A DNA stretch of 64,000 bases from Psammoneis japonica (GCA_008632985.1 QPGO01000038.1:25939-89938), one strand, 5' to 3'; positions 1 through 37,202 are shown, counted from the stretch's first letter. The notes: a model not told the origin generated them from the sequence alone. Translations and numbers: made by a program.

Positions 1-225
1 GACATGTTTGTTTTCCTTGAAAAGACACGTTTGTTTTCCTTGAAATGTCATGTTTGTTTTCCTTGAAAAGACACATTTTTTTTCTTTGAAACGACATGTT
101 TTTTTTTATGACATGTTTGTTTTCCTTGAAACAACACGCTGGCTTTCCTCAAAATGACACGTTTGTTTTCCTTGAAATGACTTTTTTTTTTGAAACGACG
201 TGTTTGTTTTTCTTGAAACAACATG
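1..225 (-). repeat. 23-bp satellite array (unit TCTTTTCAAGGAAAACAAACATG on the minus strand), runs off the window start
   Basis: Tandem copies of catgtttgttttccttgaaaaga; reverse complement of the arrays at 6.1 kb and 10.6-17.4 kb. Confidence 0.9.
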
Positions 226-1380
226 AGTTTGCCTTGAATTCTGCGCAAGAATGCACTGACGGAAGCAAACCAATGCGATTCCATGTGCAGGAGAACAGCA
301 TCTGCATCCCACAAGAAGCTCACGCCTGTCCCCAAGTTCAGTTGGATTCATGAGACTGCAATGTGCAGCAATTTGTTGGGTTGATCCTCTCCCAGATGAA
401 GATGTGTGACACCTCTGGAATGCTTGAACAGCACCCGCAACTGAGCAACTCCTTGTTTGATGTCTGGCGGTCAAAATCCTCCACCGCCAAGAGCTTGTGG
501 GCCACACAAGATGAGTTGTTTTGTGTTTCAGCTGCACCCACATTTGACAATGTGAGCCGCACTGCTTTCTGTCGAGCGGCTTGGGGAGAAAGTTCTTGTC
601 AGGGAGAGCACAGGCCATTGAGGAGAGATGACGTGCATGGCAGCATCTCCATGTTTCCGCATGATCAAGTGAACAAGATCAAAGGAAAAGAGCTGCAGTG
701 TCGCTCTTGTGTCGGAGTTTCTTCAGCTGAGTTTTCTGGGCGCCAATTGGAGCCAAGCAGTGTCCAAGGGTTTTGTGTGGAGCACAAGCTGAGAGTTGAG
801 TGCCGACGTGTTCCAGCCCTGGGTGGGAGCTCGCAGTGCTGACGTGTGACAACAATGATTTTTGTCATCCGTCGCATGTTTCGTGCGCAGATTTCTGCGT
901 GTGACATTTAAAAACAATTGTCCAGACTCGCTGTTTTGTGAAGCCCCAGACATTTTGCACAACAAATTTATAGAAACAACAATGCGCCAGTTGCATTCTT
1001 CAATGTCTGAAGAATGTAACTGGCCAAGTAAAAAATGATGCACTTCAATCATGTGCGAGTTTGTGCGTTCGCAAAATTGCCTCATTTTCTGTTGGCGATC
1101 ATTGACATTTTAATTGCCGCACAATTTTGCCACGGAGCTCGCACGTAGAAGTCTGCGGGCCCAATGTCACACGGATTCCCACCTGCATCTGGAACGCGTC
1201 TGCCAGAGCGGGACTTGGGCCTGTCTGCAGAGAAGATTTCAATGTCAAGGTCTTCATGGTGAGGGCGAATGCATGGCTCTCTGCACTCAGTGAAGTCCCG
1301 CTCAATGGCATGGAAAGAACACTTTGGCAGCTCAAGTTCATGCCCAGCTGCGCCCAGCAAAACACACCAGAGTTGATTGT
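226..1380 (-). mobile_element. Degenerate non-LTR retrotransposon RT C-terminal fragment; inverted copy of ~16510-17260, interrupted by a MITE
   Basis: Minus translation QLWCVLLGAAGHELELPKCSFHAIERDF and HTKPLDTAW align to the 16.5-17.2 kb copy; resembles diatom non-LTR RT C-terminal motifs. Confidence 0.65.
805..1200. mobile_element. MITE, family A subfamily 1 (396 bp), 4-bp TSD TGCC
   Basis: Ends GACGTGTTCCAG...CTGGAACGCGTC; TGCC at 801-804 and 1201-1204; empty site in the paralog near 16690-16705. Confidence 0.92.
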
Positions 1381-1384
1381 CAGG

Positions 1385-1734
1385 CCATGTCTTCAATTTA
1401 GACAACAAAGTGGTGGAAAACAAAGAGTTGCTCACAGCTGGAGGTGTGCATTGATGGAGGTGCCAGACAAGCAACGAGGCAGCAAGATTCAACCAACTGA
1501 CGTCATGCTCCCCATCCAACATCAGCTCTGCTGTGACAGTGTTCCCCTCATGCCCCAAGTCCACGGACATGGGAGGGACAGCAGGAGGCGCACCTTTGGC
1601 CTGTCCAAAATGATGTTGACTCTGTGTCCAAAGTGCTGCTGCTGCATCCTCCGGAGCATCTGCTGTCATCCAATGTTTGCATGTCTTCGGATTGTCTTGA
1701 GGACCAACTGGCACTTGAATGGTCTTGATGCTTG
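1385..1734 (-). mobile_element. Degenerate non-LTR retrotransposon ORF fragment (region upstream of RT)
   Basis: Translation LWTQSQHHFGQAKGAPPAVPPMSVDLG resembles the RN..HFGQA.GTPF motif of diatom non-LTR elements. Confidence 0.45.
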
Positions 1735-2152
1735 AGTCTGCTTTCTCCTTGAAAGCGTCAATCTTTTGGATCACTCTCTTTGTCTCTTCTGCTTCTGCAC
1801 ACTGCAGCTTGCAGCAGAGACCGCTGTTGGACGAAAACATGCCAAGATCTGGCAGCCGGTTTGCGGGGCTGTTCTTCAGTCTTCCAGCCTTCCATGCTTG
1901 CTTTTGCATGTCCAGCCAATGTCCAAGTCTCTCTCCATTTTCAGTCTGCTTTCTCCTTGAAAGCATCAATCTTTTGGGGCACTCTGTCTCTTCTGCTTCT
2001 GCACACTGCAGCTTGCAGCAGAGACCGCTGTTGGATGAAAACATGCCAAGATCTGGCAGCCGGTTTGTGTTGCTGTTCTTCATTCTTCTTCCAGCCTTCC
2101 ATGCTTGCTTTTGCGTGTCCAGCCAATGTCTAAGTCTCTCTCCATTTTCAGT
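1735..2152 (-). repeat. ~208-bp tandem duplication encoding helicase-associated (HA)-like repeat remnants
   Basis: agtctgctttctccttgaaagc at 1735 and 1943; translation LGHWLDMQKQAWKAGRL twice (HA-like LG.W...Q). Confidence 0.6.
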
Positions 2153-2199
2153 GTGACAATGGGGCACTTTGCAGCTTCCCCCCGTGCACCACAAACTGT

Positions 2200-5100
2200 T
2201 TTAGAAGTCTTCAAAACTGTCTTCCCGGATTCCGTGATGATCCAACAGCACACATCCGATCCGACGTTGTGGGAAATGCCTGGCCACCGTCCAAGTCTCC
2301 TCAGGTCATCTGTTGCACTCGTTTGTCGGGCCTGTCCCACCACCAGACCATGTCACAGAAACCAAAATCCAAGCACCCGCCTGTTTCGGGTGTCTGACCA
2401 GTCACCTCTTCATGCCCAGTCCTCTTGTCACGACCTCTTGCCATGCAAGATGCCAGCTCCGATTCACACACAAGACCAAAATCCCACAGTCGTTTTGGCA
2501 CCTTTTTCTTTGTCATGCGCAGACGCCAACACTTGGCTGGGAACCCAATCTCTCTTTCTGCAGCATGATTCTGATTCTTGCAACCTTGTTCTGTCGTCCT
2601 AAGTTGGATCCTCATTCGGCGTGCATGCTTGACAAACTTGGCATTTCGTCCGGCAAACTCTCCAGCTCCATCCGACATGAGATGTTCTGGCGCACCCATG
2701 TCATCTGCAAAATCAATGAGAGACAGACCTGCCTCCGACCTTGCGGTCATTGGCACAACCTTTGCGAATTTGCCCTGAGCACAAACATTGGCACAAGTGT
2801 TGCCGAGCAAAGACTTCACCTTAGACATCAACGTGTCCACAAACCATGTCCCTTTTGGTCGCTTCCGGTGCAAGTCCAGGTGGTCGACCCCAACTCTCCT
2901 TGACATTGGTTGAGTCACCGTCCGCACACCACGTTGTGTGGTTGCATTGATGGTGTCCTCAGCCGTTTCCAAGCTGCGTCGATCTTGGAGTGATGGTCCT
3001 TGCTGCGTGGCTCCTTGACAGATCTTGCCTTCTCATCCACGTCAGACCCACACGTGCAAGCCACATTGACTGAACTGATGAGCCTGTCACAGAAGGTTTG
3101 AAGGTGACAAAGTGGAGACAATCGGGCCAGTTCAGTTTCAACCTCGCCCCATTGGACTGCTTGAGACTTGGCCCTGTCGCTCATCATTTCTGAAATTTGT
3201 TCCTGTTGCATGCCAGATGTCATTGATCGGATGGCGCGCATTTCAGATTGCTCCCGTGTGCGCTGTGGCAAACCCATGTCGACTTCTGTTGGTTCCCATG
3301 CATCTCCTGTTAGCAGCATGACTGGTGAGTTCTTCTCCTCCCAATCCGTCGGAACGCAAGACTTGAAAGATGCGATTGTCCCTGTGGAATTGAAAGGGAT
3401 GAAAGCCTCATCAGCTTTGACTCCAAACCCATTTCGAGTGTCGCAGGGGTTGTCATGTGCAGGTGTGTTGCGTGCTTGCAATTGATTGGGGTTCAACAGT
3501 GAATGCTGCATGTCAGTGCCAAACCACAACATTTGGTCTCCGACCAGTGAATGCTCGCGACTCGTCTCCGGATCTGTCCATGCCGTGCAACAATGCGCCA
3601 CAGGGACCTGTTCAATCGGCTCACAAGAGTCTAGGAATGGGTGCACTCAACAGATTTCGTTTGACAATTCCACAAGTTTCCAGTTGGCTCCAGCACAACA
3701 AGCACCCGCATGGGTGTCACATTCATTCCTCGCCATGAAACCAGGTGTCGTCACATTCGTTGTTGCAGTTGAAGTCATTGACCTCATTGCACGTCTCGAC
3801 GTCACAGTGACGCGCCTTTTCGTCGTCTTTTCTTGCAAATGAAACATCGGGTGGGGTTCAGTTAACAACACAATGAGCAACATGAATGCAAATGACATGT
3901 GCACAAGATGCGCCAACGCTCCCGCAGCTGAAACCACCCCAATCAGTCAAGCGTGGCCTTGATGGGCTCCTCGACCGAAAGCATGCCCATTCCCACCACC
4001 ACGATCACGGTCAGCTCCGCGACCGCGGCCGCCGCCTTGACCTTGTTGCTGCTCTTGGCCATGACAATCTTGGACCTGAGCTTCGGCTGCCTGCCTGTTG
4101 TCTCCGTCGCGTCCACCTCTTCCTGCAGCACCTCCGCGGCCACCGCGACCATGCATCCTTTCACGAGCTTGAAAGACGCTGTCGAGGCCTCCGTTGAAGC
4201 GCAACCTTTCCCATTCCTGGTCGGTGAAGTTCCTCGCAGGATCTGATGCATCTGCTCTGTTGATCATGGTTGCATGATCTCCACCTCTTCCATGTTGTCC
4301 ACCGCGTCCCCCGCCGCGGCCGAATCTTCCTCCACGTCCACGACCGCCGCAATGGAAACCACGGCCACCGCTGCCACCTCGGCTGACCTGAGAGATCTTG
4401 CATTTCGTGTGACGCCGGGCTTCCAACTGAGCACCTGCATGCAAACGAGAGACTTCGGATGAGAAATGAGCACATGCCCCCGCGAAGACGCGAGGGCACT
4501 GGTTGCCAACAACGGCCGCAGCCACCACAAGACGAGCATCATCCGACTTGATGCCCTTTTGAAGGATCTCAACCTTCTGCCGAGAGGATGCACATTCATC
4601 TGGGATCTCATCCAAGGTGGCAAAGGCACTGGCAAGTTTCTCCGTGAACTTCTCGAACGCAAGTGCTGCTTCCTTCTTGTGGAACAGTGTTTCGATGTTG
4701 GCCTTCGCCAGATGAACCCACTCACTCAATTCTCCTTCTCCATTGCAATGATTGACCCATGCCCAGAATGCTGCATGCCCATTTTCAGTTGCATTGTGCG
4801 GTTCAATCCAAGCCCATCCAGCCGCATCAATCAAACATTCCTTTGACATGTGGCAAACACGACGATTGTCCACATCAAACGCGTCTCTGGCGAGTGGCAG
4901 TTGACACATGCATTGTTCCTGAGTGTCCGCAAACACAGCCGGTGCAGGCATCCTCATCACGACACATTTCAATGGTTCCTTCAGTGTGCCAAGTTTCTGT
5001 GCCAACAGATTCAAGAAGGCATCCTCGCACACGTCGAAATCATCCATCTTGAATTTGGTGAGGTCACCAACCGCTGCAGTTGACTCCGTAAATTCCTTTT

Positions 5101-5461
5101 CAATGCGCCTGCCGTCCCCAGCCACCGCCACAGCTGCATTGTTAAAGTTCCCCACGACCAGCAGTTGACTCCTTTTCGTCAAATCCCTTGACCACCATGC
5201 CAACACCTGCAAGTTCTTAATTTGAATCGTTCCCAGAATCACGCAACCATCGGCTGCCGTGCGACAAGCTGCCCTCTGAGCTAAGTCCTCCACATCATGA
5301 TCAGTTTCCACAACAGCAACATTCTCAAGAGCAGCAAACCCTTCATAGAAAACAAGCCTCACCCCAGCATTCTGGTCAACAACACCGCAAACCTGCAAAA
5401 CTTCATCTGCGTCAGCCACCACGGCCAAAGCCGCAAGTGCCACTGCAGGTGCCGCTGCCAT
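2200..5461 (-). mobile_element. Ty1/copia (CoDi-like) 5' half: gag, protease, integrase; degenerate
   Basis: Gag ~5461-3947 with RGG-rich tail; protease ECDTHAGACCAGAN (~3700); integrase WFVDT, HLMSDGAGEF, QNHAAEREIG, KKKVPKRLWDFG, GRWPGISHNVGSD. Confidence 0.85.
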
Positions 5462-6079
5462 CCCACAAAAGAAATTAGAGGCAAAAACCCATGCAATGGG
5501 TTGCAATTGAGTGTGAGTGCGCATGGCGCAGGAGGCCACACCGGCCGGTGTTGTGATGACGGGTTCACTTGGCCAACCAACCTTGGGGTGATCAGTCCCG
5601 TGTTGTTTTCGTCGTGAGCACACGCTCGGGCATGCTGCCCAATGCCGCAGTCGCCCCACACCTGTCACCAACATGGAGACATTGACTGTCATGCGAGCAT
5701 TTTCCATTGCAAGCTGTTTCTTGGTTGACACATGCGACACAGATCACACGCTGCATGCAACAACCTCCTTTCGACGCCACGCACATGATTCAGCACATTT
5801 TCTACAGCTGCTTGTTCCATGCACACATTCACAACAAACAACCGTTCACAACGAGTTGTTCCCTTGTCCTTTTCCATCAGCGTCAATGGCTCTGATGAAG
5901 CAAATAAATCCCGATGCAGTGGCGTGAGATGACGTTGCACCTTGAGCCCAAGAGCAGCAGTGACAAACAAAGTGAACCCCACTCCGATTACATCGCTCAA
6001 GATTGTGTGGGAAAGAACAACAGCCAAACCGTGTGCGTCAGCCCCGGACCAGGGACTGACTGCTCCATCCAGATTTGCT

Positions 6080-6470
6080 TGAACAAACATGTTATTTCAA
6101 AGAAAACAAACGAAAACAAACATGTCATTTCAAGGAAAACAAACATGTCATTTCAACGAAAACAAACATGTGTTTTTAAGAAAAACAAACATGTCTTTTC
6201 AAGAAAAACAAACATGTCTTTTCAAGGAAAACAAACGTGTCTTTTCAAAAAAAAACAAACATGTCGTTTCCAGGAAAACAAACATGTCTTTTCAAGGAAA
6301 ACAAACATGTTGTTTCTAGGAAAACAAACATGTCTTTTCAAGGAAAACAAACGTGTCGTTTCAAGGAAAACAAGCACGTGGTTTCAAGGAAAACAAACAT
6401 GTCTTTTCAAGGAAAACAAACATGTCTTTTTGACAAAAACAAACATGTCATTTTTAAAGAAAAACAAACA
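6080..6470 (+). repeat. 23-bp satellite array
   Basis: Tandem (tc)ttttcaaggaaaacaaacatg units. Confidence 0.9.
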
Positions 6471-6474
6471 ACTC

Positions 6475-6800
6475 GGAGCATGCCAACAAAGCCTTGATGG
6501 CATTTTGGCACTCAACTCAGGCGAGCCATCCAGCTCAGGCCTGTGCCCAGGGCTCAAGGGCATCAACGCCTTTCAGTTTTCTTGATCTCCAACTCAGCAT
6601 CAGCCAATGCCCGCTTGACACAAAGGTCAGAGGACATGGCCCAGCGTGCCTTGCTTTCCAAGTCAGACAACTGGCACTTTCTGATCTGGGCGCCCAAGTG
6701 CTCCTTCGGCTCGCAGACACTTCTGTCCTTGAGTGTGCAGCCAGAGCTCATGCAACCCATGATCTTGATGTTGCTGACCACTGCCTGGGTTGTCACTCGG
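6475..6800 (-). mobile_element. Fragment of a second copia lineage (RT C-terminus)
   Basis: EPKEHLGAQI..WAMSSDLCVKRALAD..PLSPGHRPELDGSPEL; homologous to but divergent from the 8.4-8.6 kb RT. Confidence 0.7.
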
Positions 6801-6949
6801 TGGGTGTTCTTGGCGGCCATCAGGCCAATGTCTCACCTCTTGGAGAGCATCTCGGGCGTGACAGTTGATGCACGACTCAAGGTAACAGTGCATGCACCCA
6901 TCTCCACTCGGCACAATCCAGGCGGACGTCCAGATTGTGCCGGTCATGT

Positions 6950-9714
6950 GGCCCGTCTCCCCCAATGTCGTTGTGAGAGACACTCACCTGAGCAACCCAG
7001 TGCCTGCATTCGTGTTGGACGATCTTGCAATTGATGGCAACCCCGGTGTGGAATGTGAGGGCGGCATCACGCCTGAGGACGAGGAACATGGCAACATGCC
7101 ATCACCTGACGAACAACCGGACGATGATGATGAACAGTCAATTGATCAACACCTGGGAATGGAACTCATGTTTGACGTTGGAACCGACGGTGAACGACGC
7201 GGTGTTGCAACGAAATGTGCAAGAGGACAGGATGGGCGTCCAATTGGGACTTGGCATCAAAACCCATTGTTTGACACTCGCGAGTGCGAAGTGGAGTGTG
7301 CCGACGGCACCACAGACAAGCACACAGCCAATGCAATTGCCGAGAACATGTTTGCTCAGGTCAACAGCAAAGGCAACCAGTGTTCTGTCTTGCACAAAAT
7401 GCAAGACCATGAGAGGAGTGACGATGCAGTGTCGGTTGAAGGAGAAGAAGAAAATCACAACAAAAGGATGGAAACCATTGGTCGGATGGAAGGATGGCAG
7501 CTCATCTTGGGGTCAAACTCAAAGATCTGAAGGACTCCAACCCAATTGAAGTTGCTGAGCATGCTGTTGCAAACAGGTTGACTGAGGAACCTGCTTTTGC
7601 TTGGTGGGTCACACATGTCCCACGCAAACGGAATCGCATTGTGTCCAAGGTTAAGAAGAAGCACTGGCGCATGACTCACAAGTTTGGCACCCGATTGCCC
7701 AAGTCAACGGAGGGCACTTTGCAGACAGACCAGGAAACGGGGACAGACCATTGGGCTTGTGCAATCAATGAGGAGATGACAAAAGCAAAGGTGGCGTGGT
7801 GCGAGCATGAGGCTAAAACCCCTCAAGTCATCCAGGAAAGCAAGAGCGCAACTTTGCGTGGTTGTCAGGAGATCAGGTGCCACACGGCATTCGACGTTAA
7901 AATGGATTTCACCAGAAAGGCAAGGTTTGCAGCTGGCGGCCACACGACAGAGGCGCCGGCATCGATTGCTTGTTCCAGCATGGTTTCTAGAGACAGTGTG
8001 TGACTTGGATTCTTGCTGGCAGCTTTGAATGGAATCGACATTGCAGCGATTGATCTGGAGAATGCTTGTCTCAATGCACTGTGCGCAGAGAAGATGTGGT
8101 TCAAGGGCGGAAAGGAGTGCGGCAAGCATGAAGGGAAGGTGCTCATTGTTGCTCGGGCGTTGTGTGGCTTGAAGAGCTTGGGACACTCTTGGAGGTCTGC
8201 ACTGTCATCGGTCCTGCGTGACTTGGGCTTTGAATCAACGAGAGCGGATCCAGATGTTCACTTGCGTGCGGCGACTCGTGAAGATGGGCACGAGCATTGT
8301 GAAATGCTTTTGGCTCATGTCGACAACATGCCAATCATTTCCCATCAAGGGAAGTCCATTGTTGCTGCAATGGGCAAGCACCATGTCGTGAAGCCCGTCA
8401 GTGAAGGAGAGCCAGAGGTTTGTCTTGGAGCCAACGTTGAGAAGGTTCAGACTCAGGATGGGCGCACAATCTGGGCGAGTTCACCGAGGTCATGTGTTGA
8501 ATCGGCGATCAAGACTGTGGAGGGTCTGTTGGATGAAGACGGCAATGGAGAGGCTCTGAAGAACAGTGCAAAGGATCCACTGCCCCCAAAGTGCAAACCG
8601 GAGCTGGACGTGACAGACGAGTTGGGCCCCGACTTGGTGGACAGGCATTGACAGCTGACAGGGATTTGTCGTTGGGCAATCGAGTTGGGTCGTGTCGACA
8701 TCTTACACGAGGTTTCAATCCCATCTCAATGTCAAGCCAATCCAAGGAAAGGACACCTTGAAGCATCGCATCATGTGTTTGCGCATGTGAAGAAGCACCA
8801 GAATATTGGGCGCATTGATTCGATCCGAAGGAACCAGTGAATGATGAATCTGTTTTCAATTCGAATGTGGGCTGGACCGAGTTTTACGGGGACATCAAGG
8901 AGGAACTGCCACTGTGGGCACCAAAGCCTCGTGGCAACCCAACAAACATCTGCGCTTTTGTTGATGCTAACCATGCAGGGAATGTCGTCACTCGCAGGTT
9001 GCATGGCAGAATTCTGATGTTTGTCAATGATGCACCAGTGACATGGTTCAGCAAGCGGCAGAACACGGTGGAATCGGTGACGTTTGGAAGTGAATTGGCT
9101 GCGATGCGGATTTGCAAGGAGTTGATTGTCGCTTTGCGTTGCAAGCTTTGCATGTTTGGAGTTCCCCTTGAAGGACCGGCAAGCATCTTTTGTGATGATT
9201 GTGGTGTTGTGAAGAATGTGAGTGTGCCTGAGTCAGTTTTGTGTGAGAAGCACAGTGCCATCAACCGCCATGTTGTGCGAGAAGCAGTCGCAGCAGGGGT
9301 TGTTGGTGTTGGCAAGGAGGACACGGAAACAAACTTGGCAGACCTGCTTGCGAAAATGGTCACAGGAGAGCGGCGATGGAAGCTTTGCTCGTGTGTCTTT
9401 TGGCAATGTTCTGACACCAAGGCCAGGCACCTGTGGCTTGCACCCACGTGTCTCGGCCTCCCAAGCCAGCATGTCTGGTGGTTTAATTTGGGTTTTGTGG
9501 TTTGCCTCTCTGTGAGAGGATGTTGCAGGTTTAGACAAATTGGCGTTGTCATTGCCGTTTCACGGGGACCGAGTGAATCTGGATGGAGAAGCAAGAGAGG
9601 ACAATGTTGTGATTGGTGGCTGGTTGGCACATGTGAATCGAGTGGTGTTCCAGCAACACACTCACAATCTAATCAGGTTTGGGTTTGAGTTGACAGTGTT
9701 GCAACTTTCCATCA
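6950..9714 (+). mobile_element. Ty1/copia (CoDi-like) 3' half: linker, RT, RNase H, PPT and putative short 3' LTR; degenerate
   Basis: NPLFDTRE, EPAFAWWV, FDVKMDFTRKARFAAGGH, RALCGLKS, RADPDV, AFVDANHAGNVVTRR, WFSKRQNTVES..FGSE, NLADL; purine tract 9581-9604, then TGTTG...CCATCA (9605-9714, LTR call tentative). Confidence 0.88.
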
Positions 9715-10287
9715 GATGCAAGGGAGTTCCCCTTGAAGGACCGGCAAGCATCTTTTGTGATGATTGTGGTGTTGTGAAGAATGTGAGTGTGCACGAGTCG
9801 GTTTTGCGTGAGAAGCACAATGCCATCAACCGCCATGTTGTGCGAGAAGCGGTCGCAGCAGGAGTTGTTGGTGTTGGCAAGGAGGACACGAAAACAAACT
9901 TGGCAGATCTGCTTGCGAAAATGGTCACAGGAGAGCGGCGATGGAAGCTTTGCTCGTGTGTCTTTTGGCAATGTTCTGACACCAAGGCCAGGCACCTGTG
10001 GCTTGCACCCACGTGTCTCGGCCTCCCAAGCCAGCACGTCTGGTGGTTTAATTTGGGTTTTGTGGTTTGCCTCTCTGTGAGAGGATGTTGCAGGTTTAGA
10101 TGAATCGGCATTGTCGTTGCCGTTTCGCGGGGACCGAGTGAATCTGGATGGAGAAGCAAGAGAGGACAATGTTGTGATTGGTGGCTGGCTGGCACATGTG
10201 AATCGAGTGGTGCTCTGGCAACACACTCACAATCCAATCAGGTTTGGGTTTGAGTTGACAGTGTTGTGACTTTCCATCAGATGCAAG
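9158..10287 (+). repeat. 565-bp tandem duplication of the copia RNase H end and 3' region
   Basis: ggagttccccttgaaggacc at 9158 and 9723. Confidence 0.9.
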
Positions 10288-10342
10288 GCATCGTGCTTGT
10301 CCTTTCGTTGCATTGAGATTCACTCGGTTGCAAGGAAAACAA

Positions 10343-10602
10343 GGCCTGTTCCAGCTCCAGGTGCTCCGCGCGGGTTCGATTCCCATCATTTGGAAATTTG
10401 TGCATTTGGCACAGTTGACTTTTTCCAAATCCGTTTTTTGCCAAATCGAATGGTGAGTGTGCAATTTGCGTGCATTTTTGGGTGTGCACTCACCTTTTGA
10501 TTGTTGAAACAATCAAAATTGAAGGAGTCAATTGCGCTAAACTGCGCAGAAAATCGGCCTCTCGAGTGATAAAAAGCAGATCACCTGGAGCTGGAACAGG
10601 CC
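10343..10602. mobile_element. MITE family B (260 bp), 21-bp TIR, 4-bp TSD ACAA, inserted into a satellite unit
   Basis: GGCCTGTTCCAGCTCCAGGTG...CACCTGGAGCTGGAACAGGCC flanked by ACAA on both sides. Confidence 0.92.
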
Positions 10603-11645
10603 ACAAACATGTCTTTTCAAGGAAAACAATCATGTCTTTTCAAGGAAAACAAGCATGTCTTTTCAAGGAAAACAGTCATGTCGTTTCAAGGAAAACAAGC
10701 ACGTCATTTCAAGGAAAACAAACATGCATTTTTAAGCTGCAATGAAAACAAACATGTCTTTTCAATGAAAACAAACGTGATTTCAAGGAAAACAAACACG
10801 TCTTTTCAAGGAAAACAAACACATCTTTTCAAGGAAAACAAACATGTCTTTTTGAGGAAAACAAACATGCTGCACCAAGGAAAACAAACATGTCCTTTCA
10901 AGGAAAACAAACATGTCTTTTCAAGGAAAACAAACGTGTTGTTTCAAGGAAGGAAAAAACAAAATCTTTCAAGGAACACAAACATGTCTTTTTAATTTGC
11001 AAGGAAAACAAACATGTCATTTTAAAGAAAACAAATGTGTCTTTTCAAGGAAAACATGCGTGTCGTTCCAATGAAAACAAACATGTTGTTTCAAGGAAAA
11101 CAAACATGTCGTTTCAAGGAAAACAAACATGTCTTTTCAAGGAAAACAAAAGTGTTGTTTCAAGGAAGGAAAACAAACAACTTCTTTCAAGGAAAACAAG
11201 AAACATGTCTTTTTAAATTGCAAGGAAAACAAACATGTCTTTTCAAAGAAAACAAACATGTTGTTTCAAGGAAAACAAACATGTCGTTTCAAAGAAAACA
11301 AACGTGTTGTTTCAAGGAAAACAAACACATTGGTTCAAAGAAAACAAACATGTCTTTTCAAGCAAAACAAAAGTGTTGTTTCAAGGAAGGAAAACAAACA
11401 AGTCATTTCAACGAAATTGGAAAACAAACATGTCTTTTCAAGGAAAACAAACATGTTGTTTCAAGGAAAACAAACACGTCATTTCAAGGAAAACAAACAC
11501 GTTGTTTCAAGGAAAACAAACATGTCATTTCAAGGAAAACAAGCACGTCATTTCAAGGAAAAAAACATGTTCTTTCAAGACATGTTCTTTCAAGGAAAAC
11601 AAACATGCCATTTCAAAGAAAACAAACAAAGGAAAACAAACACGC
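10603..11645 (+). repeat. 23-bp satellite array
   Basis: Tandem units with higher-order variants shared with the 12.9-14.3 kb array. Confidence 0.92.
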
Positions 11646-24236: not shown

Positions 24237-24456
24237 GATGACGCACTGCACGGAATGGATGACATGTCCTCCATTTCATCAAACCACAGCACGCAAGGAG
24301 CGGAACTTTTGGCAATGAACGATTTGGATGTTGGCAGTGTTCAATCCTTTGCTGCAGTGTTGGACGTGACAATGGAGGAGGAAGAGGACATCAACGATGA
24401 GGATCAATGTTCGGGGACCAGGCATGATGCTCCTGCAGAAGAGGCCTTGGCTTCTA

Positions 24457-30100: not shown

Positions 30101-30950
30101 CGGCGCTGTGGTCAGGCTGGTTGACAGCCACCAATTGTGCCTCAATTTGCAATGCCAGCTCATGGATTTCTACATGTGCGTTAAGGTGCGTGAAGAACAT
30201 GTGGGCACCTTCAAGTGACGCATGCAAACAATCATGAAGAAACATTCGGAAATGGGGACAGCACAGAGAGAAGTCAGAAACATGGATCCAAAACAAAGCA
30301 ACACAAGATGAAGGCAACGGCGACGGGATCGATGAAAAGAAGGATTCGGATGGAAAGATGCCGGAGACAGTGAAAACAGGTGGTGCCAAGACAAAGAAGG
30401 AAGAGAAAAACAGGATGGGAAAAATGAAGAAAGAGAAAAAGAAGCAGACGACACGACGTCAAGAGGGGAGCAGCGATGCAATTCTGCGTTTCGAGGGACC
30501 TCTTCCTCTCGATGATGTTCACCCAAATGCAAGAAATGCAGTGTGGCTTTTTTGGAACGGTGACGAGGAAACATCCAACACGGCAGCGGCACGTGCATTT
30601 GAAATTCTTGCAAGAGAGCGGACAAGACACATGGAATGAAAAGGACGATGCGGATGAACAGGCCAATTGGAGCACAGTTGTTGATTGAACAATCAGTGCA
30701 CACTTTACATGATGAAAATTTCATTGCATGCAATTGCAACGTTTGGCTTGTCATCAAAGATCGTCAGTTGTTGTGAAAAAGGCTGAGCATGAAAATTAAA
30801 AAGCATCTGTGTTCAAACATGAAGAACAGCAGGAGATCAACAATTGGCCAAACAACAAAAACCATCATGTGCAGACAAGCAGATTTCACAACATGGCAAC
30901 GCATTTTTGTCATGTGTGCAGATGTTGCGACATCGTGCACTCTGATGTGT

Positions 30951-31476
30951 CATCTCATGTTGACTTTTGTTGACTCGTGTTGACTTTGGTTGACTTGTTT
31001 TGACTCTGCCCAGTTGCATGTGTGTGATGCCCATGCAAAGCTGTCTGCATGCATGATGTTTGTCACATGCGACTGGTGGCAAGCAAGGTGCCAGACTGTC
31101 AGTTTTGTCCAGAGACACTTCTGCACTCATTGATGATTTGTGTTAACTCATGTTGACTCATGTTCCCTTTTGTTGGCTTGTGCTTGCTTTTGTCAACTTT
31201 TGTTGACTTGCGTTGACTCACTTTTGCTTGACAAGTTTTGCGACCACTTTTGGCACATTGGCATTTCACAATTTGGTTGATGATTTTGGCAAGAAAAGAG
31301 AAAGTTGACACTCAGGACAAACCCATTGGGGGCACATGCAAATGCCCACAGCAACAAAAATTTAGCCAAGGAGGGCCCTGGAAGAGAAGGGGGAGGTGGC
31401 ACAGGTGGTGCCATTGGCTCTGGAGTTGGGCATGCTGTGTTGAAAATTCCACAGACAAAGGAGTTGCCTTCGACGA
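30951..31476 (+). repeat. Dispersed repeat, copy 1 (copy 2 at 34727-35248)
   Basis: Direct alignment; contains short (t)gttgact repeats. Confidence 0.85.
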
Positions 31477-31499
31477 TGCGCAAACACGATCACTTGTGC

Positions 31500-32900
31500 T
31501 GCAACCAGGGAACAGTGAGTTTGATGGAGGCCAGCCATTGTCTTGGACATTGGCGTTTGCATCTGTGGCAAGAAGAGTTGGTTGATGCAGATGGATCTGT
31601 CGCCAAGTCTTCAGCGGATTTGATGCCATGTGCCAACGGGTTGAAGACAATCACTCCCCTTCCAGTGGGAGGTTTCAGTGCACCTTTGCATTGGTCATGT
31701 GAACAGGGACAGTCAGCAGGAGCCAGAAAACGAAAAGCGGTGTCGAGCACATTCCAGGGTGCACAAGCCTTGTGTGGACATCTGCCAGAAACAGGAGGAA
31801 CGTTGATTGCACCAGCGCCATTCACCAGCGTTCCTTCTTCCCGTGAACTGTTGGCAACAGCAGAAGGATCCTCGGACATGCTAAAATGGTTGCTCGCATG
31901 TGCTTTGTGACAAAACTGACAATGAGGCAAGCATTGACAGAACAGTTTCCATCTGCAGAACAGGCATGTTCCCAAAACATTGAACAGGTGCCACTGTGGT
32001 CTCCAACACGAAATGTGCAGGAACGTTCAGGCCAATCCACACAAACACTGAGTTTGCCAGCTTCAACCCACACAAGCTTCTGAAGGCCGCCATGGCAAAA
32101 CCAATGACATTCTTCAGACAACGACTGCAGCTTGCACTCAAATGTGTTGTCTCCTCAACTTCATGATTTTCTCCCTTGGACGACATTGCCACAAAGTGGG
32201 TGTGGCATCCACAGGAAGAATTGGGAGGAGGGCAGCAGGTGTGCATGTCAAGCCACACTTGATTGTGTGGCTGCTTTGTGCCATTGGGATTGAAGTCATC
32301 ACACCATTCTTGCACCCACAGATGCAACACAAAGCCAGACGCGTTCCAGGTCTAGGTGGGACCTCGTACCACTGAACTGTGACATCGACAGTTTTTTGAA
32401 TCACGTCGTATGTCGCGCACGTAGATTTCTACGTGATTTTTTCGACATTTTGTGTCATTTTACGGTACACTTATTGAGCGATCCGTCCAACAACTTTTGA
32501 CATTTTTTGTTACAGCGCGATTCTATAATGTCTTAAGAATCGCGTAGGGCAGGCGCATTTGCAAAAACGTCGAGTGGCAAGAGGCATAATTGCCACAAAC
32601 TTGGCAGTTTATTTGATGTTGAAGATAAATGTGTCCATCAATTAAATTCTCGTACTACGGAGCTCGCACGTAGAATTCTACGGGCCCAATGTCACACGGA
32701 GTCCCACCCAGGACTGGAACCCGTCGCCATTGACATCTTCTTTGAGTTAGATGAACAAGGAATGTGCTGCCGGTGTGCATGACATGGCAGGTTGGGAATC
32801 TTGAACAATGACGTCTGCATCAAAAAAGAACTTTTCAAATTGTGCGGCTTTTCCAACTCATTTGCAACCACGTCTTCAAACAAAACACACAGGAATGACT
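31500..32900 (-). mobile_element. Degenerate fragment of a second Plavaka/CACTA-like transposase, interrupted by a MITE
   Basis: EWCDDFNPN..VW..PP..AMSSKGENHEVE and DWPER..GDHSG resemble diatom transposase motifs. Confidence 0.45.
32338..32725. mobile_element. MITE family A subfamily 2 (388 bp), TSD GCCA; least mutated copy
   Basis: GACGCGTTCCAG...CTGGAACCCGTC with GCCA on both sides; reverse complement of 24506-24895. Confidence 0.93.
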
Positions 32901-33884
32901 GCCACTGTCGGTTTTCCTGGGAACAGGATGAGGCAAATTTGGCACAATGGCACGTTTGCTGGAGAAATGCAACATTTCAAAATCTTTCACAGAAGTGGGG
33001 ACACGAGTCCGATGAAAAATGGACAAGTCTGGATCATGGCTGTTTGTGGCTTGCAGCGTGCATTCTGCCCCAACAATTCACGTTGATTGGACTCAATTGG
33101 AGGCATCCTCTGAATGTGGTTGAACAGAGCAAAAATTTGCATTTTGCTCTGATTGTCTTGCACACAGAGCATGTCGCTCTGACTGTGGCTTGAACAGAGC
33201 AAAGCCACAATTGATTTTTTGGCTCTTGTGAACGGAGCAAAATGCTCTGTTTTTTTTTGTTTGGAGCAAAAACAACTCATTTAGAGTGACTCTCATTTGC
33301 AGTGGCAGTGGTGTGTCTTCCCAGACTCAAACGGCACACTTGGTCCACTTTTCACAGTGTTTGCCATGTCTGAGTCTCTGTTGCTTCCAGGAGGTCACAA
33401 TGGCCATCACCGTCATCCCCACGTCCACATGGTTGTGTCCAGAAACTGCAACAACTCAGAACTCCGCTGTCCAGATGACATGTGGTGAGAAGATTCATCT
33501 CAAGGGCATGAATTCCACCCTTCAATGGTGCCTGCAGGCTTTTCACACTGGGTTTCTCTGTCAACCACACACTCGTGGCATGTTGCCCAGTTGCCCGGCC
33601 ACATGGAATCTGCCATGGCTGATGTTGTCTCACCTGCATGCAAAATTGAGGGCCAACCAATGCCAACAATTTCCTTCAGACACAGACATCAAAGATTGCC
33701 AACAAACACTGTGGACAACAGCTGCCCATCCCAACACCTGAGCCCAAATCACTGCCCAAGCCCTGCCCACCTTGGCACCAGCCTTGGCTCTCACAACTTC
33801 CTCTCCCTTTTTCTCTCCCTCTTTGACCCCAACCCCAATGCTGGCCCTGAGACCCCCAACCCCCAAACTCCAACTCTGCCCCCC

Positions 33885-33925
33885 NNNNNNNNNNNNNNNN
33901 NNNNNNNNNNNNNNNNNNNNNNNNN
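33885..33925. other. Assembly gap (41 N)
   Basis: Run of n. Confidence 0.99.
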
Positions 33926-33926
33926 A

Positions 33927-35248
33927 AAAGGCAAGGCCGGATCACCATGTTGCGCCCTCTGATGGACCCCACTGCATCAATTTTTCTGGTGTCATCTGTG
34001 CTGTGTTCTGTGCTGTGACTTTGATTTGACAATCTTGTGAGCACCCCACAGAGCCATTTGCTTTGCTTTTTTTCTTAGAACAACCAAACTAAATTTGTCT
34101 TTTCTTTTCTGCAAAGGCTGCTGACATCCTTGCTGCCACCAGAAGAGGCAAGCTCTCCCTCATGAAGCATTTCTTTAGGATCTGAGCCAACTTTTGCTCA
34201 ACCAAGCACAAATGCTCCTGCATCATGGTGCTGACCAAGACACCGTTGACCAAATCTGTGGTCAATTTGATCAGCTCCTCACAATGCCAACTTTGGACAT
34301 GCCAGCTTTTGAGCAAAGCTCAGCACACCAACTTTCTGGCAAAACTTGGCATGCCAACTTTGGGGCAAAACTTGGCACACCAACTTTGAAGCAACACTTG
34401 GCATGCCAACTTTGAAGCAACACTTGGCATGCCAACTTTGCTGCAAAACTTGGCATGCCAACTTTGAAGCAAAACTTGGCATGCCAACTTTGGAGCAAAA
34501 CTCGGCACCCCAACTTTGGGGCTCAGCTTGGTTTTGCAATGGGATTCCCCAAAATTCCCTGGAATTGCCACCTTTTGCCATGCTTTTCCATGGGAAGCAT
34601 GAGCTCCCAGGGAGTTGACACAAATGCTGCCTTGTCATTGCACCCACTGTTTGAAGAATGACCATTGAGAACTCAGTTTTGTTTGCTTGCCAAACATCTT
34701 GCATGTTGATTTGTGTTGGCTTGTGTCATCTCATGTTGCTTTTGTTGACTCGTGTTGACTTTTGTTGACTTGTTTTGACTCTGCCCAGTTGTTTGTGTGT
34801 GGCACCCATGCAAAGCTGTCTGCATCTGTGATGTTTGTCACATGCGACTGGCAGCAAGCAAGGTGCCAGACTGACAGTTTGTCCAGAGACACTTCTGCAC
34901 TCATTGATGACTTGTGTTAACTCATGTTGACTCACACTCCCTTTTGTTGGCTTGTGCTTGCTTTTGTCAACTTTTGTTGACTTGCATTGACTCACTTTTG
35001 CTTGACAAGTTTTGCGACCACTTTTGGCACATTGGCATTTCACAATTTGGTTGATGATTTTGGCAAAAATCAGAAAGTTGACACTCAGAACAAACCCATT
35101 GGGGGTGCATGTAAATGCCCACAGCAACAAAAAGTCAGCCAAGAAGGGCCCTGGAAGAGAAGGAGGAGGTGGCACAGGTGGTGCCATTGGCTCTGGAGTT
35201 GGGCATGCTGTGTTGAAAATTCCACAGACAAAAGAGTTGCCTTCAATG
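33927..35248 (+). repeat. Composite of repeat copies: 20731-21495 (with the 26-bp array at ~34284-34520) joined to 30951-31476
   Basis: Direct alignment; junction at ~34726. Confidence 0.82.
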
Positions 35249-37202
35249 AAGGTGACAAGACAGCAGTGGATTTGACTCCTCTGTTGGTTTTGTTGTTGGC
35301 ATTTTGTCAATGTTGTGGCAGGTGGACATGATGGTTGAGGTGTCAGGATTGGGGCAACCTTGTTGATTGACAGAAGTTTCCCACTCTGGCGCCAATGTAA
35401 AACAAAAAATGTTGGCAAGCAAACAATTGAATCCACATGAGAACAGAACAGAGAACAAAGCTGACACTGCACTTGCAGAAAAACAACACTTGCTTGCAAA
35501 TTTTCAAAAAAATCTCTGCATTGTTTGCAAATGTTGTCCAAACCATGCCATGCACAACTGTGCAAATCTTGCCATTGTCGTCACACCCCAATCCTCAATG
35601 CAAACCACATTGGCTTTTTTCTGTTTGAGAGGATGTTGGTGACAGTGCAGGCCTTGCCAGAGCAACAAAGGTGACAGAGGGGCCCCTCCTCCTGGCTCCA
35701 AAGAGCAAATGTTGCTGTCCACAACTTGGCATCTTGGTGCCACTGGGAGGAGTGAAAGTGCATTTTCCACCCCACAAACCACTTGACACATGACGTTGCA
35801 GTGCACAAGACTTTTTTGGATGTGCCATGATGGCCCCACTGCTCTGTTGTTCATGTGTCACCTTTGTTTTGGCAAGCCCACAACTGACATCCCAAATGAG
35901 CATAAAGTCAGACTTTTGTCACCACAAACAACCAACATCATTTCATTGGCAAAGGACATGGAACCAAGTCCAGCTAATTGTGTGTCTGCTTCGCCGCAAA
36001 CAGTGCTTTGATTTGCACTTCAAAGCCCCAGGAGATGCTGCTCTGTGTCCAGCTCACCTTCAATCCACTCTGACAGCACATTTCCACTTTTACACTCCCA
36101 ATGACATGTGACATTGTGCCCTTGCAGTCAATTGGAAAAAGGCAGATTGCTCCTTGTGACACCACCCAATGCCCAAACATGGGTGTTTTTCTGTTTTTTG
36201 CTGGGTGATGTGAGTCAAGTGATTTGGTTTCCCCTTTCAGGTTCTGAGCTGGAGAAAAGTGAAAACCATGCACAAGCACATGTGTGGGAGCCCTGACGTC
36301 ACCATGGTTGTTGCCAAAACTTGCAAACCCAACAAACGCAATGTTTGTCACTGCAGGTGCAACAGAAAAAAGGAAGGCAGATCTTTTGTCTGAACAAGTG
36401 GGCACTGGATTGGCCAAGATGCATCGTGACTTGGTGAGCAAGAGTTTGCATGCCACTGTTGTGGTTGTTTCAGCCACTGCAATCATTCATGCATTGCTGG
36501 CATCATCCATGCATTGCTGGCATCAACCCCCTGGTGTTCAAGCTGCCAACGGCAAAGATGTTTCAACACAATGAACTCAATGCACAGGGCAAAGTGTGGA
36601 CACCATTTTATCTCATGGGAGAGAGCAGGGTTTGGTCTGGTGGGGTTCAGGTCTCCATTGTTGTTTTGGCATGACTGGTGACTTGTGTGCTTCACACACA
36701 TGTGAAGGCAAGCATTTTTGGTGATAAGCGAGTCCCACAAAATCACGCAATGTGGTTGCAAAAACGAATGCCTTTGCACAGTAAATCATAAAGGAGACCT
36801 ACACGCATGGCACTAAACGCCACACCCGAACAAACGATCAGATGGATTTCAAATGTCCCGTTTAACGCATCAGTCGCTTGTGATGGCAAAATGACCAACA
36901 ATGACAGCACTTGCAGATGCACTCACCGCGCAAGCAGAGGCCAAACAAAATATTCCCGCGTCATAGTCATCGCCGTGCTGCACTGTGCCAGGTGTTACTT
37001 AGCGAGAAGAGAGGAGCAACGACACAAGCCATGTGCAAGAACAACAAGATGAAGGGCAGGTAAGTGTTTTCGAACTGCGTGCTGTGATCCACAGTATCTT
37101 GACGACTAATACTCTACCGGTAGTAACTCACATAAACATTCAAAAACTACAGCAAACCTGTTCCTATTCTCCCATTCTGTCCTACCTTTTCTTGTTTCCA
37201 AC

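What the first reader, a model, noticed from the sequence alone, without database searches (positions are those of the whole stretch)
1..36800. Repeat-restricted A:T->G:C hypermutation at TpA: a candidate 'reverse RIP' genome-defence system
Seen: TpA is almost absent from the repeat blocks but common in 37-58.8 kb. Conserved Tyr codons of unrelated elements read Cys (TAY->TGY) or His (TAY->CAY): copia GCQEI, NACLNA, RALCGLKS, HEHCE..HVDN, ALRCKL; gypsy HLGCLV, WCHETL; non-LTR GCTDD. These cannot come from CpG decay, and CpG is plentiful. LTR, non-LTR and DNA transposons and the satellite are all hit, on both strands. Established: fungal RIP runs the opposite way (C->T, creating TpA). Inference: a process acting on chromosomal repeat DNA, such as a TadA/ADAT-like adenine deaminase, deamination of modified adenine, or Pol eta-type error-prone repair (WA->WG). 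I do not know of a description in diatoms but cannot search.
Basis: partly seen in the sequence, partly recalled or inferred. Interest (0 to 1): 0.95.

Follow-up and report, generated by a model that had tools for sequence, protein, structure and literature searches.

The report
TpA-erasing hypermutation of diatom repeats
In this diatom DNA the transposon and satellite blocks have lost about 95% of their TA dinucleotides to TG or CA while neighbouring genes are untouched, the mark of a repeat-targeted mutation process that runs opposite to fungal RIP and was so far found in print only for one other alga.

Summary
In 36,859 bp of repeat DNA there are 144 TpA against 2,524 expected (o/e 0.057). 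In 21,900 bp of adjacent genic DNA the o/e is 0.61, and it is 0.70 outside long ORFs. Borders are sharp at about 36.1-36.8 kb and 59.0 kb. The lost TA plus lost CG equals the gained TG plus CA.

Polarity is shown by outgroups. Against 25 close copia relatives the window keeps 0 of 10 conserved Tyr (6 Cys, 3 His, 1 Glu) but 102 of 125 other conserved residues.

The process acts after insertion. One LTR-like copy has TG or CA at 13 sites where its partner has TA, and never the reverse. Another pair has 11 TG/CA-discordant sites.

K-mer contigs of a public run reproduce the TA-poor sequence, though this run may be the window's own source sample.

Eleven of 150 copia RT cluster representatives from other sources are also Tyr-free.

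A 2026 preprint reports TpA-only A:T>G:C hypermutation of integrated viruses in Bigelowiella natans. My searches found no diatom report. The enzyme is unknown. A DNA adenine deaminase is the leading guess. Pol eta is disfavoured.

The parts
1..24450 (.). TpA-depleted repeat block (TEs, satellites, segmental repeats)
   Evidence: TpA o/e is 0.00-0.21 in every 500-bp window. TG and CA o/e are 1.4-1.9.
24451..26300 (.). Island with partly retained TpA: LTR-like element of very high summed depth plus part of a gypsy fragment
   Evidence: TpA o/e is 0.27-0.61, with dense TA at 25303-25800. Summed word depth in run X1 reaches about 82,000, against 50-80 for the lowest-depth pieces.
26301..32327 (.). 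TpA-depleted repeat block
   Evidence: TpA o/e is 0.03-0.24.
32328..32750 (.). Island: second, inverted copy of the LTR-like element, which keeps its TpA
   Evidence: 22 TA lie in 32353-32748. It holds TA at 13 sites where copy 24505-24905 has TG (7) or CA (6), and never the reverse. Summed depth is about 104,000.
32751..36700 (.). TpA-depleted and strongly CpG-depleted repeat block, with an N gap at 33885-33925
   Evidence: TpA o/e is 0.00-0.08 and CpG o/e is 0.04-0.37. The bin 33363-33884 is at single-copy depth (56.6) in X1.
36100..36800 (.). Left border of the hypermutated domain
   Evidence: TA positions are 36091, then 36609 and 36725, then dense from 36782 onward.
37000..58900 (.). Unique genic region used as the internal control
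   Evidence: TpA o/e is 0.61 overall and 0.70 outside long ORFs. Pfam finds DEP x6, Peptidase_S8, fn2, IGPS and Aa_trans. The IGPS ORF is nearest to a cluster whose commonest known phylum is Bacillariophyta.
58975..59100 (.). Right border of the unique domain
   Evidence: TA is dense up to 58974. After that come only 59093, 59134 and 59491.
59001..64000 (.). Second repeat block: TpA-depleted at 59.0-62.47 kb, intermediate at 62.47-64 kb
   Evidence: TpA o/e is 0.00-0.18 up to 62.5 kb and 0.14-0.43 beyond.
7860..9150 (+). Degenerate Ty1/copia reverse transcriptase
   Evidence: Pfam RVT_2 on 8004-8648. There are 2,551 homologues at E<=0.001. Tyr is kept at 0 of 10 conserved positions: 6 Cys, 3 His, 1 Glu.
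25700..26710 (-). Degenerate Ty3/gypsy RT-RNase H
   Evidence: Pfam RT_RNaseH and RT_RNaseH_2. Aligned to Ty3 (4ol8), FLGYSI reads HLGCLV and NYYRRF reads SCCRDA. Aligned to an RT/RNase H p80 chain (5dmq), YLGYLL reads HLGCLV.
27726..30061 (+). Possible Plavaka/KDZ-like DNA transposase remnant (lead only)
   Evidence: Pfam Plavaka at E 3.3e-4, below the curated cut-off. The Atlas feature search scores 0.93 to a Plavaka-containing cluster.
8811..16337 (+). Macro-tandem of a unit of about 2.65 kb (3 copies) carrying a copia RT tail and 23-bp satellite arrays
   Evidence: Differences between the three copies are mostly CpG decay, so TpA was already exhausted before the duplication.
1085..2200 (-). 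ORF with Helicase-associated (HA) domains inside the depleted block
   Evidence: Pfam PF03457, E 2e-11.
21063..21289 (.). 26-bp satellite, with a second array at 34293-34522
   Evidence: The flanking duplicate 20929-21499 / 34159-34730 is 97% identical.

Best explanation
The blocks at 1-36.7 kb and 59-64 kb are silenced transposon and satellite DNA of a diatom. A DNA-level, TpA-specific A:T>G:C transition process has run on them almost to saturation.

Each TA becomes TG or CA, depending on which strand is hit. The process acts after insertion, independently in each copy, and on both strands of the same element. It stops within a few hundred bases of neighbouring genes. It is separate from the ordinary CpG>TpG decay that also affects these repeats.

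The process has a flanking preference: TA followed by T or C is lost most, TAG less, and TAA least.

Shown here: the signature, its polarity, its post-insertion timing, its domain restriction, and that it stands in read-derived contigs.

Inferred, not shown: that the catalyst is a deaminase guided by chromatin or small RNA which turns adenine in 5'-TA into hypoxanthine (then read as G), and that the outcome serves genome defence by destroying Tyr codons and other TA-containing codons and motifs. The same idea was proposed for Bigelowiella natans.
For: Depletion: 144 TpA observed against 2,524 expected in 36,859 bp of repeats. Unique DNA has o/e 0.61, and unique DNA outside long ORFs has 0.70.

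Dinucleotide budget: TA falls by 0.0374 and CG by 0.0223, while TG rises by 0.0219 and CA by 0.0374.

Polarity from outgroups: against 25 normal copia relatives (50-63% identical), 135 columns are conserved at >=80% and the window keeps 102. Tyr is kept at 0 of 10 (6 Cys, 3 His, 1 Glu), Ile at 0 of 3 (all Met, codon ATG), and non-Tyr residues at 102 of 125. Against all 150 best representatives the result is the same: Tyr 0 of 9, other residues 76 of 99. Gypsy: Tyr in Ty3 and in the RT/RNase H p80 chain is read as Cys or His.

Post-insertion action: in the pair 24505-24905 / 32726-32328, 13 sites are TA in one copy and TG or CA in the other, with 0 the reverse way, while 25 CpG are conserved. 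The pair 24896-25280 / 26798-27182 has 11 TG<->CA discordant sites with 23 CpG conserved.

Both strands: Cys and His replacements are interleaved in one RT, and there are no TG/CA runs (z -0.6 to 2.0).

Independence from CpG decay: Spearman rho 0.16, p 0.18, over 72 windows. Window 4001-4500 has 45 CpG and 0 TpA.

Stands in read-derived contigs: six listed X1 pieces at depth 52-82, aligned over 2,157 nt in all, differ from the window at 9 letters. At the high-depth LTR, most of the depth reads TA where the window has CA (place 32639: 32,321 of 52,153).

Precedent: mutation-accumulation lines of B. natans gave 230 of 231 mutations in two integrated viral regions as A>G or T>C, and all of those fell at TpA (bioRxiv 10.64898/2026.01.13.699255; Results and Discussion read).
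Against: - No de novo mutation data, no enzyme and no chromatin data exist for this organism, and no whole genome was available.
- Run X1 may be the sample the window was assembled from, and its platform is not on record, so it is not independent confirmation.
- In the older three-copy repeat, differences between copies are mostly CpG-type: 41 patterns, against 8 TG/CA-discordant and 3 with TA. Recent activity is therefore documented only by two young pairs.
- The sequences with the highest summed depth are the least depleted, which does not fit a simple trigger by repetition.
- The ancestral state of the satellites cannot be polarised.
- The flanking preference (3' T > C > G >> A) matches neither what I recall for ADAR (3' G favoured) nor the ADAT substrates (never U at position 35).
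Confidence: 0.8

Rival explanations
1. The process is real and DNA-level but directed at thymine. A TET/JBP-type or similar enzyme modifies T in TpA in heterochromatin (for example to 5hmU or 5fU). The modified base mispairs with G, or is excised and repaired with error, giving T>C. On the opposite strand this reads A>G.
For: TA is palindromic, so the sequence data cannot tell whether A or T is hit. A Plavaka-like transposase lead sits in the block. From recall only: Plavaka/KDZ transposons travel with TET/JBP genes in fungi, and dinoflagellate 5hmU is enriched at TpA.
Against: No thymine modification has been shown here. No TET/JBP gene could be looked for, because no genome was available. 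The recalled links come from other lineages.
Confidence: 0.15
2. Editing at the RNA level (ADAR- or ADAT-like A>I on transposon transcripts or dsRNA), fixed in the genome by reverse transcription.
For: From recall: ADAR prefers a 5' U, and edited retroelements are known in animals.
Against: Changes arose independently in copies after duplication. Both strands are hit within one RT. Satellites, an HA-domain ORF and a stretch at single-copy depth are equally depleted. Depletion follows domain borders rather than element borders.
Confidence: 0.04
3. Sequencing or assembly artefact: a modified base in heterochromatin is systematically miscalled.
For: The platform of the assembly and of run X1 is not on record, and X1 may be the source sample.
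Against: K-mer contigs at depth 52-82, one up to 676 nt, agree with the window (9 differing letters over 2,157 aligned nt in 6 pieces). A miscall of a palindromic site would give conflicting TG and CA reads rather than clean contigs (inference). Eleven Tyr-free copia RT clusters come from ENA, JGI and Logan assemblies.
Confidence: 0.03
4. Regional repair or polymerase bias in late-replicating heterochromatin (Pol eta-type WA>WG, or mismatch-repair bias), without a dedicated enzyme.
For: The change is restricted to heterochromatin-like domains, and the differences are mainly transitions (450 of 547 mismatches).
Against: ApA is not depleted (o/e 1.36 against 1.12) and ApG is not enriched (0.89 against 1.02), so the WA motif is not met. 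About 94% loss at one dinucleotide is far beyond any regional spectrum shift that I know of.
Confidence: 0.05
5. Inherited composition or selection: the elements were born TA-poor, or TA is selected against.
For: None specific.
Against: All 72 longer copia relatives examined have 2.7-5.6% Tyr. The young LTR copy keeps its TA. Non-coding satellites and unrelated element classes share the state.
Confidence: 0.02

Closest known systems
TpA hypermutation of integrated viral DNA in Bigelowiella natans (bioRxiv 10.64898/2026.01.13.699255; abstract, Results and Discussion read)
   Same: Both show exclusively A:T>G:C change at TpA, giving TpG and CpA. Both are confined to foreign or silent DNA with a normal genome around it. 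In both, the long-term footprint is TpA depletion with CpA+TpG enrichment. In B. natans the low-TpA CDS are enriched for RT and DDE domains.
   Different: The host is a rhizarian, not a stramenopile. The process was shown there by mutation accumulation, whereas here it is inferred from the footprint only. Targets there are a single-copy NCLDV and a virophage insert with modest depletion (Rho TpA 0.45). Here the targets are LTR elements, satellites and segmental repeats with o/e 0.057, plus parallel CpG decay. The sections I read give no flanking-base preference, and the supplements (bioRxiv) were closed.
Fungal repeat-induced point mutation (RIP)
   Same: Both are transition hypermutation confined to repeated DNA, with a dinucleotide preference and sharp domains, and both ruin TE coding capacity.
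   Different: The direction is opposite: RIP is C:G>T:A, mostly at CpA, and creates TpA. RIP needs duplication and acts premeiotically. Here the sequences with the highest summed depth are the least mutated, and a stretch at single-copy depth is depleted.
AID/APOBEC cytosine-deaminase hypermutation of retroelements and viruses
   Same: Both would be enzyme-driven, context-specific transition hypermutation serving as defence.
   Different: APOBEC deaminates C in ssDNA at TC or CC, and gives strand-coordinated clusters. Here the change is at A:T pairs within TpA, and no strand runs were seen.
ADAR hyper-editing / ADAT2-ADAT3 (TadA family) adenosine deaminases
   Same: Both give A>I, read as G, with a preference for U/T 5' of the edited A. 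The preprint cites DNA activity for the amphioxus ADAT2 (on A and C) and cytosine deamination of DNA for the trypanosome one.
   Different: These enzymes act on RNA in their known roles. The 3' preference seen here (T > C > G >> A) does not match what I recall for them. No gene could be examined.
CpG decay by 5-methylcytosine deamination
   Same: It is also present in these repeats (CpG o/e 0.56) and also ends in TG/CA.
   Different: It cannot produce TAY>TGY or TAY>CAY changes. Its extent is uneven and is uncorrelated with TpA loss.

Membership tests
TpA-specific A:T>G:C hypermutation of silent/foreign DNA (B. natans type) | The changes are TA>TG and TA>CA transitions | tested here: met
   The dinucleotide budget balances. 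Tyr>Cys/His at 9 of 10 conserved Tyr, and Ile>Met at 3 of 3. 13:0 polarised sites in an LTR-like pair.
TpA-specific A:T>G:C hypermutation of silent/foreign DNA (B. natans type) | Confined to foreign or repeat DNA, with the rest of the genome normal | tested here: met
   o/e is 0.057 in repeats against 0.61 in unique DNA and 0.70 in unique non-ORF DNA. Borders are at 36.1-36.8 kb and 58.97-59.1 kb. This covers one 64-kb window only.
TpA-specific A:T>G:C hypermutation of silent/foreign DNA (B. natans type) | Elevated de novo rate measurable across generations | not testable with these tools
   This needs mutation-accumulation lines or resequenced strains. The only indirect figures are 13 of 21 TA lost against 3 of 30 CpG lost in one young copy.
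Fungal RIP | C:G>T:A transitions (CpA>TpA) that raise TpA | tested here: not met
   TpA is removed, not created. TG and CA are enriched to o/e 1.6.
Fungal RIP | Triggered by sequence duplication | tested here: inconclusive
   Most depleted DNA is multi-copy by summed depth. However, 33363-33884 is at single-copy depth and is TA-free, and the pieces with the highest summed depth keep the most TA. The tool warns that summed depth is no copy number.
Pol eta-type WA>WG mutagenesis | A>G at both TpA and ApA | tested here: not met
   ApA o/e is 1.36 in repeats against 1.12 in unique DNA, and ApG is 0.89 against 1.02.
RNA editing fixed by retrotransposition (ADAR-like) | Changes on the transcribed strand, made before integration, in retroelements only | tested here: not met
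   Cys-type and His-type (opposite-strand) changes are interleaved in one RT. Independent changes arose after duplication. Satellites and non-retroelement DNA are depleted.
CpG methylation decay | CpG>TpG/CpA | tested here: met
   CpG o/e is 0.56 against 0.96, and 166 CG/TG or CG/CA differences were counted in 13 copy pairs. It is a second, separate process that explains 37% of the TG+CA gain, not the TpA loss.

The most novel reading that the evidence does not exclude
Diatoms, and judging from Tyr-free copia sequences in several environmental assemblies many other protists, may possess a dedicated heterochromatin-guided enzyme system that converts TpA to TpG/CpA in double-stranded chromosomal DNA. 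It would be a mirror image of RIP, shared between Stramenopiles and Rhizaria. It would permanently kill transposons by erasing Tyr codons and TA-rich regulatory motifs, while removing TAA and TAG stops. The catalyst could be a natural DNA adenine deaminase with intrinsic 5'-TA-Y specificity.
Probability: 0.45. Interest if true: 0.9.

Novelty: new member of a known kind. Interest (0 to 1): 0.78.

Why it matters
If this holds, TpA hypermutation is not a peculiarity of one chlorarachniophyte. It would be a widespread and very efficient way for algae to inactivate selfish DNA.

- It would explain odd compositional domains and the crowds of spurious long ORFs in diatom repeats.
- It would give a simple genome-wide marker (TpA o/e) for silenced DNA.
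- It would affect TE annotation and dating.
- It points to a natural enzyme acting on A:T pairs in DNA with a defined sequence context. That is of basic interest and of interest for base-editing tools.
- The sharp borders at 36.1-36.8 kb and 59.0 kb give testable landmarks for how the process is confined.

Tried and rejected
- No whole genome is held for this window, so no genome-wide TpA map and no search for deaminase, TET/JBP or polymerase genes was possible.
- Fetching DNA of the Tyr-free environmental copia relatives failed. Alignment A1 was too diverse to search with. Two metagenome scans, with A2 and with P0125, returned no confirmed locus. A viral-contig scan with P0152 found nothing. 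TpA depletion in those other organisms is therefore inferred from protein only.
- A word-index search with the gypsy ORF against longer proteins found nothing. A region search with P0152 timed out.
- The non-LTR claim (ORF 16375-16881 with GCTDD) found no support: no Pfam family at E<=0.01 and only chance-level PDB hits.
- No tRNA genes were found.
- Runs X2 and X3 added almost nothing. X2 laid 0 contigs and X3 laid 14.
- Strand-coordinated clusters of TG or CA were looked for and not found.
- Earlier findings of this scan: three look-ups returned nothing.
- Literature searches gave no diatom report. The only relevant paper was the B. natans preprint.

Full report
**1. The observation**

A sliding count shows that TpA is almost absent from 1-24.4 kb, 26.5-32.0 kb, 33.0-36.5 kb and 59.0-62.5 kb. 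Most 500-bp windows there hold 0-5 TA. Windows across 37-58.9 kb hold 9-44.

| Dinucleotide | Repeats (36,859 bp): observed / expected (o/e) | Unique (21,900 bp): observed / expected (o/e) |
|---|---|---|
| TA | 144 / 2,524 (0.057) | 904 / 1,492 (0.61) |
| CG | 1,177 / 2,092 (0.56) | 1,188 / 1,243 (0.96) |
| TG | 3,602 / 2,245 (1.60) | 1,661 / 1,469 (1.13) |
| CA | 3,788 / 2,352 (1.61) | 1,432 / 1,263 (1.13) |

Base composition is the same in both sets (47.6% G+C).

As dinucleotide frequencies, the repeats have lost 0.0374 TA and 0.0223 CG and gained 0.0219 TG and 0.0374 CA. The total loss is 0.0597 and the total gain 0.0593. Two transition routes into TG/CA therefore account for the whole shift, and the TpA route is the larger (63%).

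Unique DNA outside the long ORFs (6,770 bp) has TpA o/e 0.70. Neutral unique DNA is therefore not affected.

The borders are sharp. On the left, TA occurs at 36091, then at 36609 and 36725, and is dense from 36782. On the right, TA is dense to 58974 and then occurs only at 59093, 59134 and 59491.

**2. What the DNA is**

The unique part encodes a protein with six DEP domains, a subtilase with an fn2 domain, an indole-3-glycerol-phosphate synthase and an amino-acid transporter. The synthase ORF is nearest to a protein cluster whose commonest known phylum is Bacillariophyta.

The depleted blocks hold:
- a degenerate copia RT (RVT_2, 8004-8648+);
- a gypsy RT-RNase H (25794-26710-);
- an ORF with HA domains (1085-2200-);
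- weak Plavaka-like leads (27726-30061+);
- 23-bp and 26-bp satellites;
- a 2.65-kb macro-tandem in three copies;
- several dispersed duplicates.

Because TAA and TAG are nearly gone, long ORFs crowd all six frames. In the repeats the stop counts are 152 TAA, 75 TAG and 1,675 TGA. Of 209 stop-to-stop frames of at least 100 codons in the window, 172 start before 37 kb or after 58.8 kb.

**3. Polarity**

The copia RT fragment has 2,551 homologues at E<=0.001 among 1.84 billion cluster representatives.

At the 9 positions where at least half of the 150 best hits have Tyr, the window has 6 Cys, 2 His and 1 Met and no Tyr. It keeps 76 of 99 other consensus residues.

Against the 25 closest relatives (50-63% identical, all with normal Tyr content), 135 columns are conserved at >=80% and the window keeps 102:
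- Tyr is kept at 0 of 10 (6 Cys, 3 His, 1 Glu).
- Ile is kept at 0 of 3 (all now Met, codon ATG).
- One Leu is now Pro (codon CCA followed by A).
- Non-Tyr residues are kept at 102 of 125.

TAY>TGY and TAY>CAY are the two single transitions at a TpA, on one strand or the other. They are interleaved along one RT, so both strands were hit.

The gypsy ORF shows the same pattern. Against Ty3 (4ol8), FLGYSI reads HLGCLV and NYYRRF reads SCCRDA. Against an RT/RNase H p80 chain (5dmq), YLGYLL reads HLGCLV.

**4. Timing**

In 13 copy pairs within the window, 450 of 547 mismatches are transitions.

Two pairs are informative.

The LTR-like pair 24505-24905 / 32726-32328 has 13 sites with TA in the second copy and TG (7) or CA (6) in the first. 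There are none the other way. 8 TA and 25 CpG are conserved, and there are only 5 CpG differences. My arithmetic from that table: one copy lost 13 of 21 TA but about 3 of 30 CpG.

The pair 24896-25280 / 26798-27182 has 11 sites that are TG in one copy and CA in the other, with 23 CpG conserved and 7 CpG differences. That many discordant sites cannot come from CpG. By my arithmetic about 0.25 would be expected. They mark ancestral TA hit independently in both copies after duplication.

In the older three-copy macro-repeat, TA was already exhausted before the duplication. The later differences there are mainly CpG-type: 41 patterns, against 8 TG/CA-discordant and 3 involving TA.

**5. Properties of the process**

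Strand-symmetrised counts, repeats / unique:

| Context | Repeats / unique |
|---|---|
| ATAT | 2 / 136 |
| GTAC | 2 / 108 |
| ATAC | 0 / 121 |
| ATAG | 6 / 111 |
| CTAG | 16 / 118 |
| CTAA | 39 / 71 |
| TTAA | 76 / 84 |

A multiplicative model of my own, fitted to these counts, gives survival per strand of about 0.09 for TAT, 0.10 for TAC, 0.28 for TAG and 0.73 for TAA.

ApA is not depleted (o/e 1.36 against 1.12), which disfavours the Pol eta WA motif.

TpA loss and CpG loss are uncorrelated over 72 windows (rho 0.16, p 0.18). For example, 4001-4500 has 45 CpG and no TA, while 34-36.5 kb has lost both.

TG and CA show no strand runs (z from -0.59 to 2.0 in five segments).

**6. Is it an artefact?**

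One public run (X1) holds 0.94 of the sampled words of 34.0-44.0 kb.

Its k-mer contigs were laid on 17500-33884. Six listed pieces at depth 52-82, aligned over 2,157 nt in all, differ from the window at 9 letters. One of them is a 676-nt piece over 33182-33857, a stretch that holds one TA. Among the places where other laid contigs differ from the window, 258 of 309 are transitions.

Of the 40 places the tool printed:
- 8 have TA in the contigs where the window has TG or CA, and 3 are the reverse;
- 13 have CG in the contigs where the window has TG or CA, and 4 are the reverse.

At place 32639, most of the depth (32,321 of 52,153) reads TA where the window has CA.

X1 may be the window's own source sample and its platform is not on record. 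This rules out an assembly slip but is not independent proof.

Independent support comes from other data sets. 11 of the 150 best copia RT cluster representatives have under 0.5% Tyr, none lie between 0.5 and 1%, and the rest lie between 1 and 8%. These 11 are only 35-52% identical to the window's fragment and come from ENA, JGI/IMG and Logan assemblies. At the 8 columns where the other 139 hits mostly have Tyr, the 11 low-Tyr hits have 37 Cys, 28 His, 2 Tyr, 2 Trp and 3 Arg (72 cells). They keep 516 of 668 other conserved residues. One cluster member, P0152, is a 1,377-residue polyprotein with no Tyr, 66 Cys and 51 His. I could not fetch the DNA of these relatives.

**7. What is known**

Eight full-text searches found no description in diatoms.

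They did find one close precedent: bioRxiv 10.64898/2026.01.13.699255 (Mettrop et al., dated 2026-04-14). I read its abstract, Results and Discussion. Its supplements are closed.

In mutation-accumulation lines of Bigelowiella natans:
- 231 of 302 nuclear single-nucleotide mutations fell in an integrated NCLDV region and a virophage region.
- 230 of those 231 were A>G or T>C, and all of those fell at TpA.
- The rate was about 6e-7 per site per generation, and the effect was seen in only some lines.
- Low-TpA CDS are enriched for RT and DDE domains.
- The authors propose an ADAT2-like DNA adenine deaminase.

The present window shows the same signature in another supergroup branch. It is far closer to saturation (o/e 0.057 against their Rho 0.45 for the NCLDV insert). 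It falls on LTR elements, satellites and segmental repeats, with a measurable flanking preference and a separable CpG-decay component.

**8. Verdict**

The direction, the post-insertion timing and the restriction to repeats are supported.

The defence role and the enzyme are inference. I put about 0.8 on a real DNA-level, TpA-targeted process confined to silenced DNA. Within that, I put roughly 0.4 on an adenine deaminase and 0.15 on a thymine-directed route.

Rivals are weak: RNA editing before integration, artefact, polymerase bias and inherited composition. Each is contradicted by at least one test above.

It is best filed as a new member of a very recently described kind rather than as categorically new.

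Noticed in passing
window 1-36800 and 59000-64000: With TAA and TAG nearly gone (152 and 75, against 1,675 TGA), long open frames crowd all six frames. 172 of the window's 209 stop-to-stop frames of at least 100 codons start in the repeat blocks. Gene finders are likely to call false proteins here.
   Followed up: partly
window 24505-24905 and 32328-32726: An inverted pair of a 400-bp LTR-like element has summed word depth of about 82,000-104,000 in run X1, against 50-80 for the lowest-depth pieces. The tool warns that this is no copy number. These are the parts that keep the most TpA, as expected for a young family.
   Followed up: partly
protein P0152 (member of the cluster of P0027; ENA source): A 1,377-residue copia polyprotein with an uninterrupted frame has no tyrosine at all (66 Cys, 51 His). 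Hypermutation that removes TA also removes two of the three stop codons, so dead elements can keep full-length ORFs.
   Followed up: partly
window, TTAA sites in the repeat blocks: TTAA is almost fully retained (76 against 84 strand-symmetrised counts; 36.9 kb of repeats against 21.9 kb of unique DNA), while ATAT, GTAC and ATAC are nearly extinct. A 3' A seems to protect the target A.
   Followed up: partly
window 34001-36500: CpG is almost extinct here (o/e 0.04-0.15), whereas 4001-4500 has CpG o/e 1.01 with zero TA. CpG decay is very uneven among equally TA-free repeats.
   Followed up: partly
window 8811-16337: A macro-tandem of a unit of about 2.65 kb (three copies, 92-94% identical) joins the tail of a copia RT to arrays of a 23-bp satellite. 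The same satellite, inverted, opens the window at 1-225.
   Followed up: partly
window 41931-47494 (-): Two long overlapping ORFs (966 and 896 aa) in the unique region have no Pfam family. The first carries a 66-bp tandem repeat at 42872-43063.
   Followed up: no
window 48492-50569 (-): The tail of a subtilase domain (49808-50569) and a downstream ORF with a fibronectin type II domain (48492-49958) overlap by about 150 bases. They may belong to one gene, possibly with an intron. A 168-bp tandem repeat lies at 48871-49212.
   Followed up: no
window 33885-33925: A run of 41 N lies inside the depleted block, next to a duplicate of 20730-21499.
   Followed up: no
window 62776-63999 (+): A 408-codon frame is open at the window's end. 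It has no Pfam family and intermediate TpA (o/e 0.14-0.43). It may be a partly mutated element or a gene at the edge of the domain.
   Followed up: no
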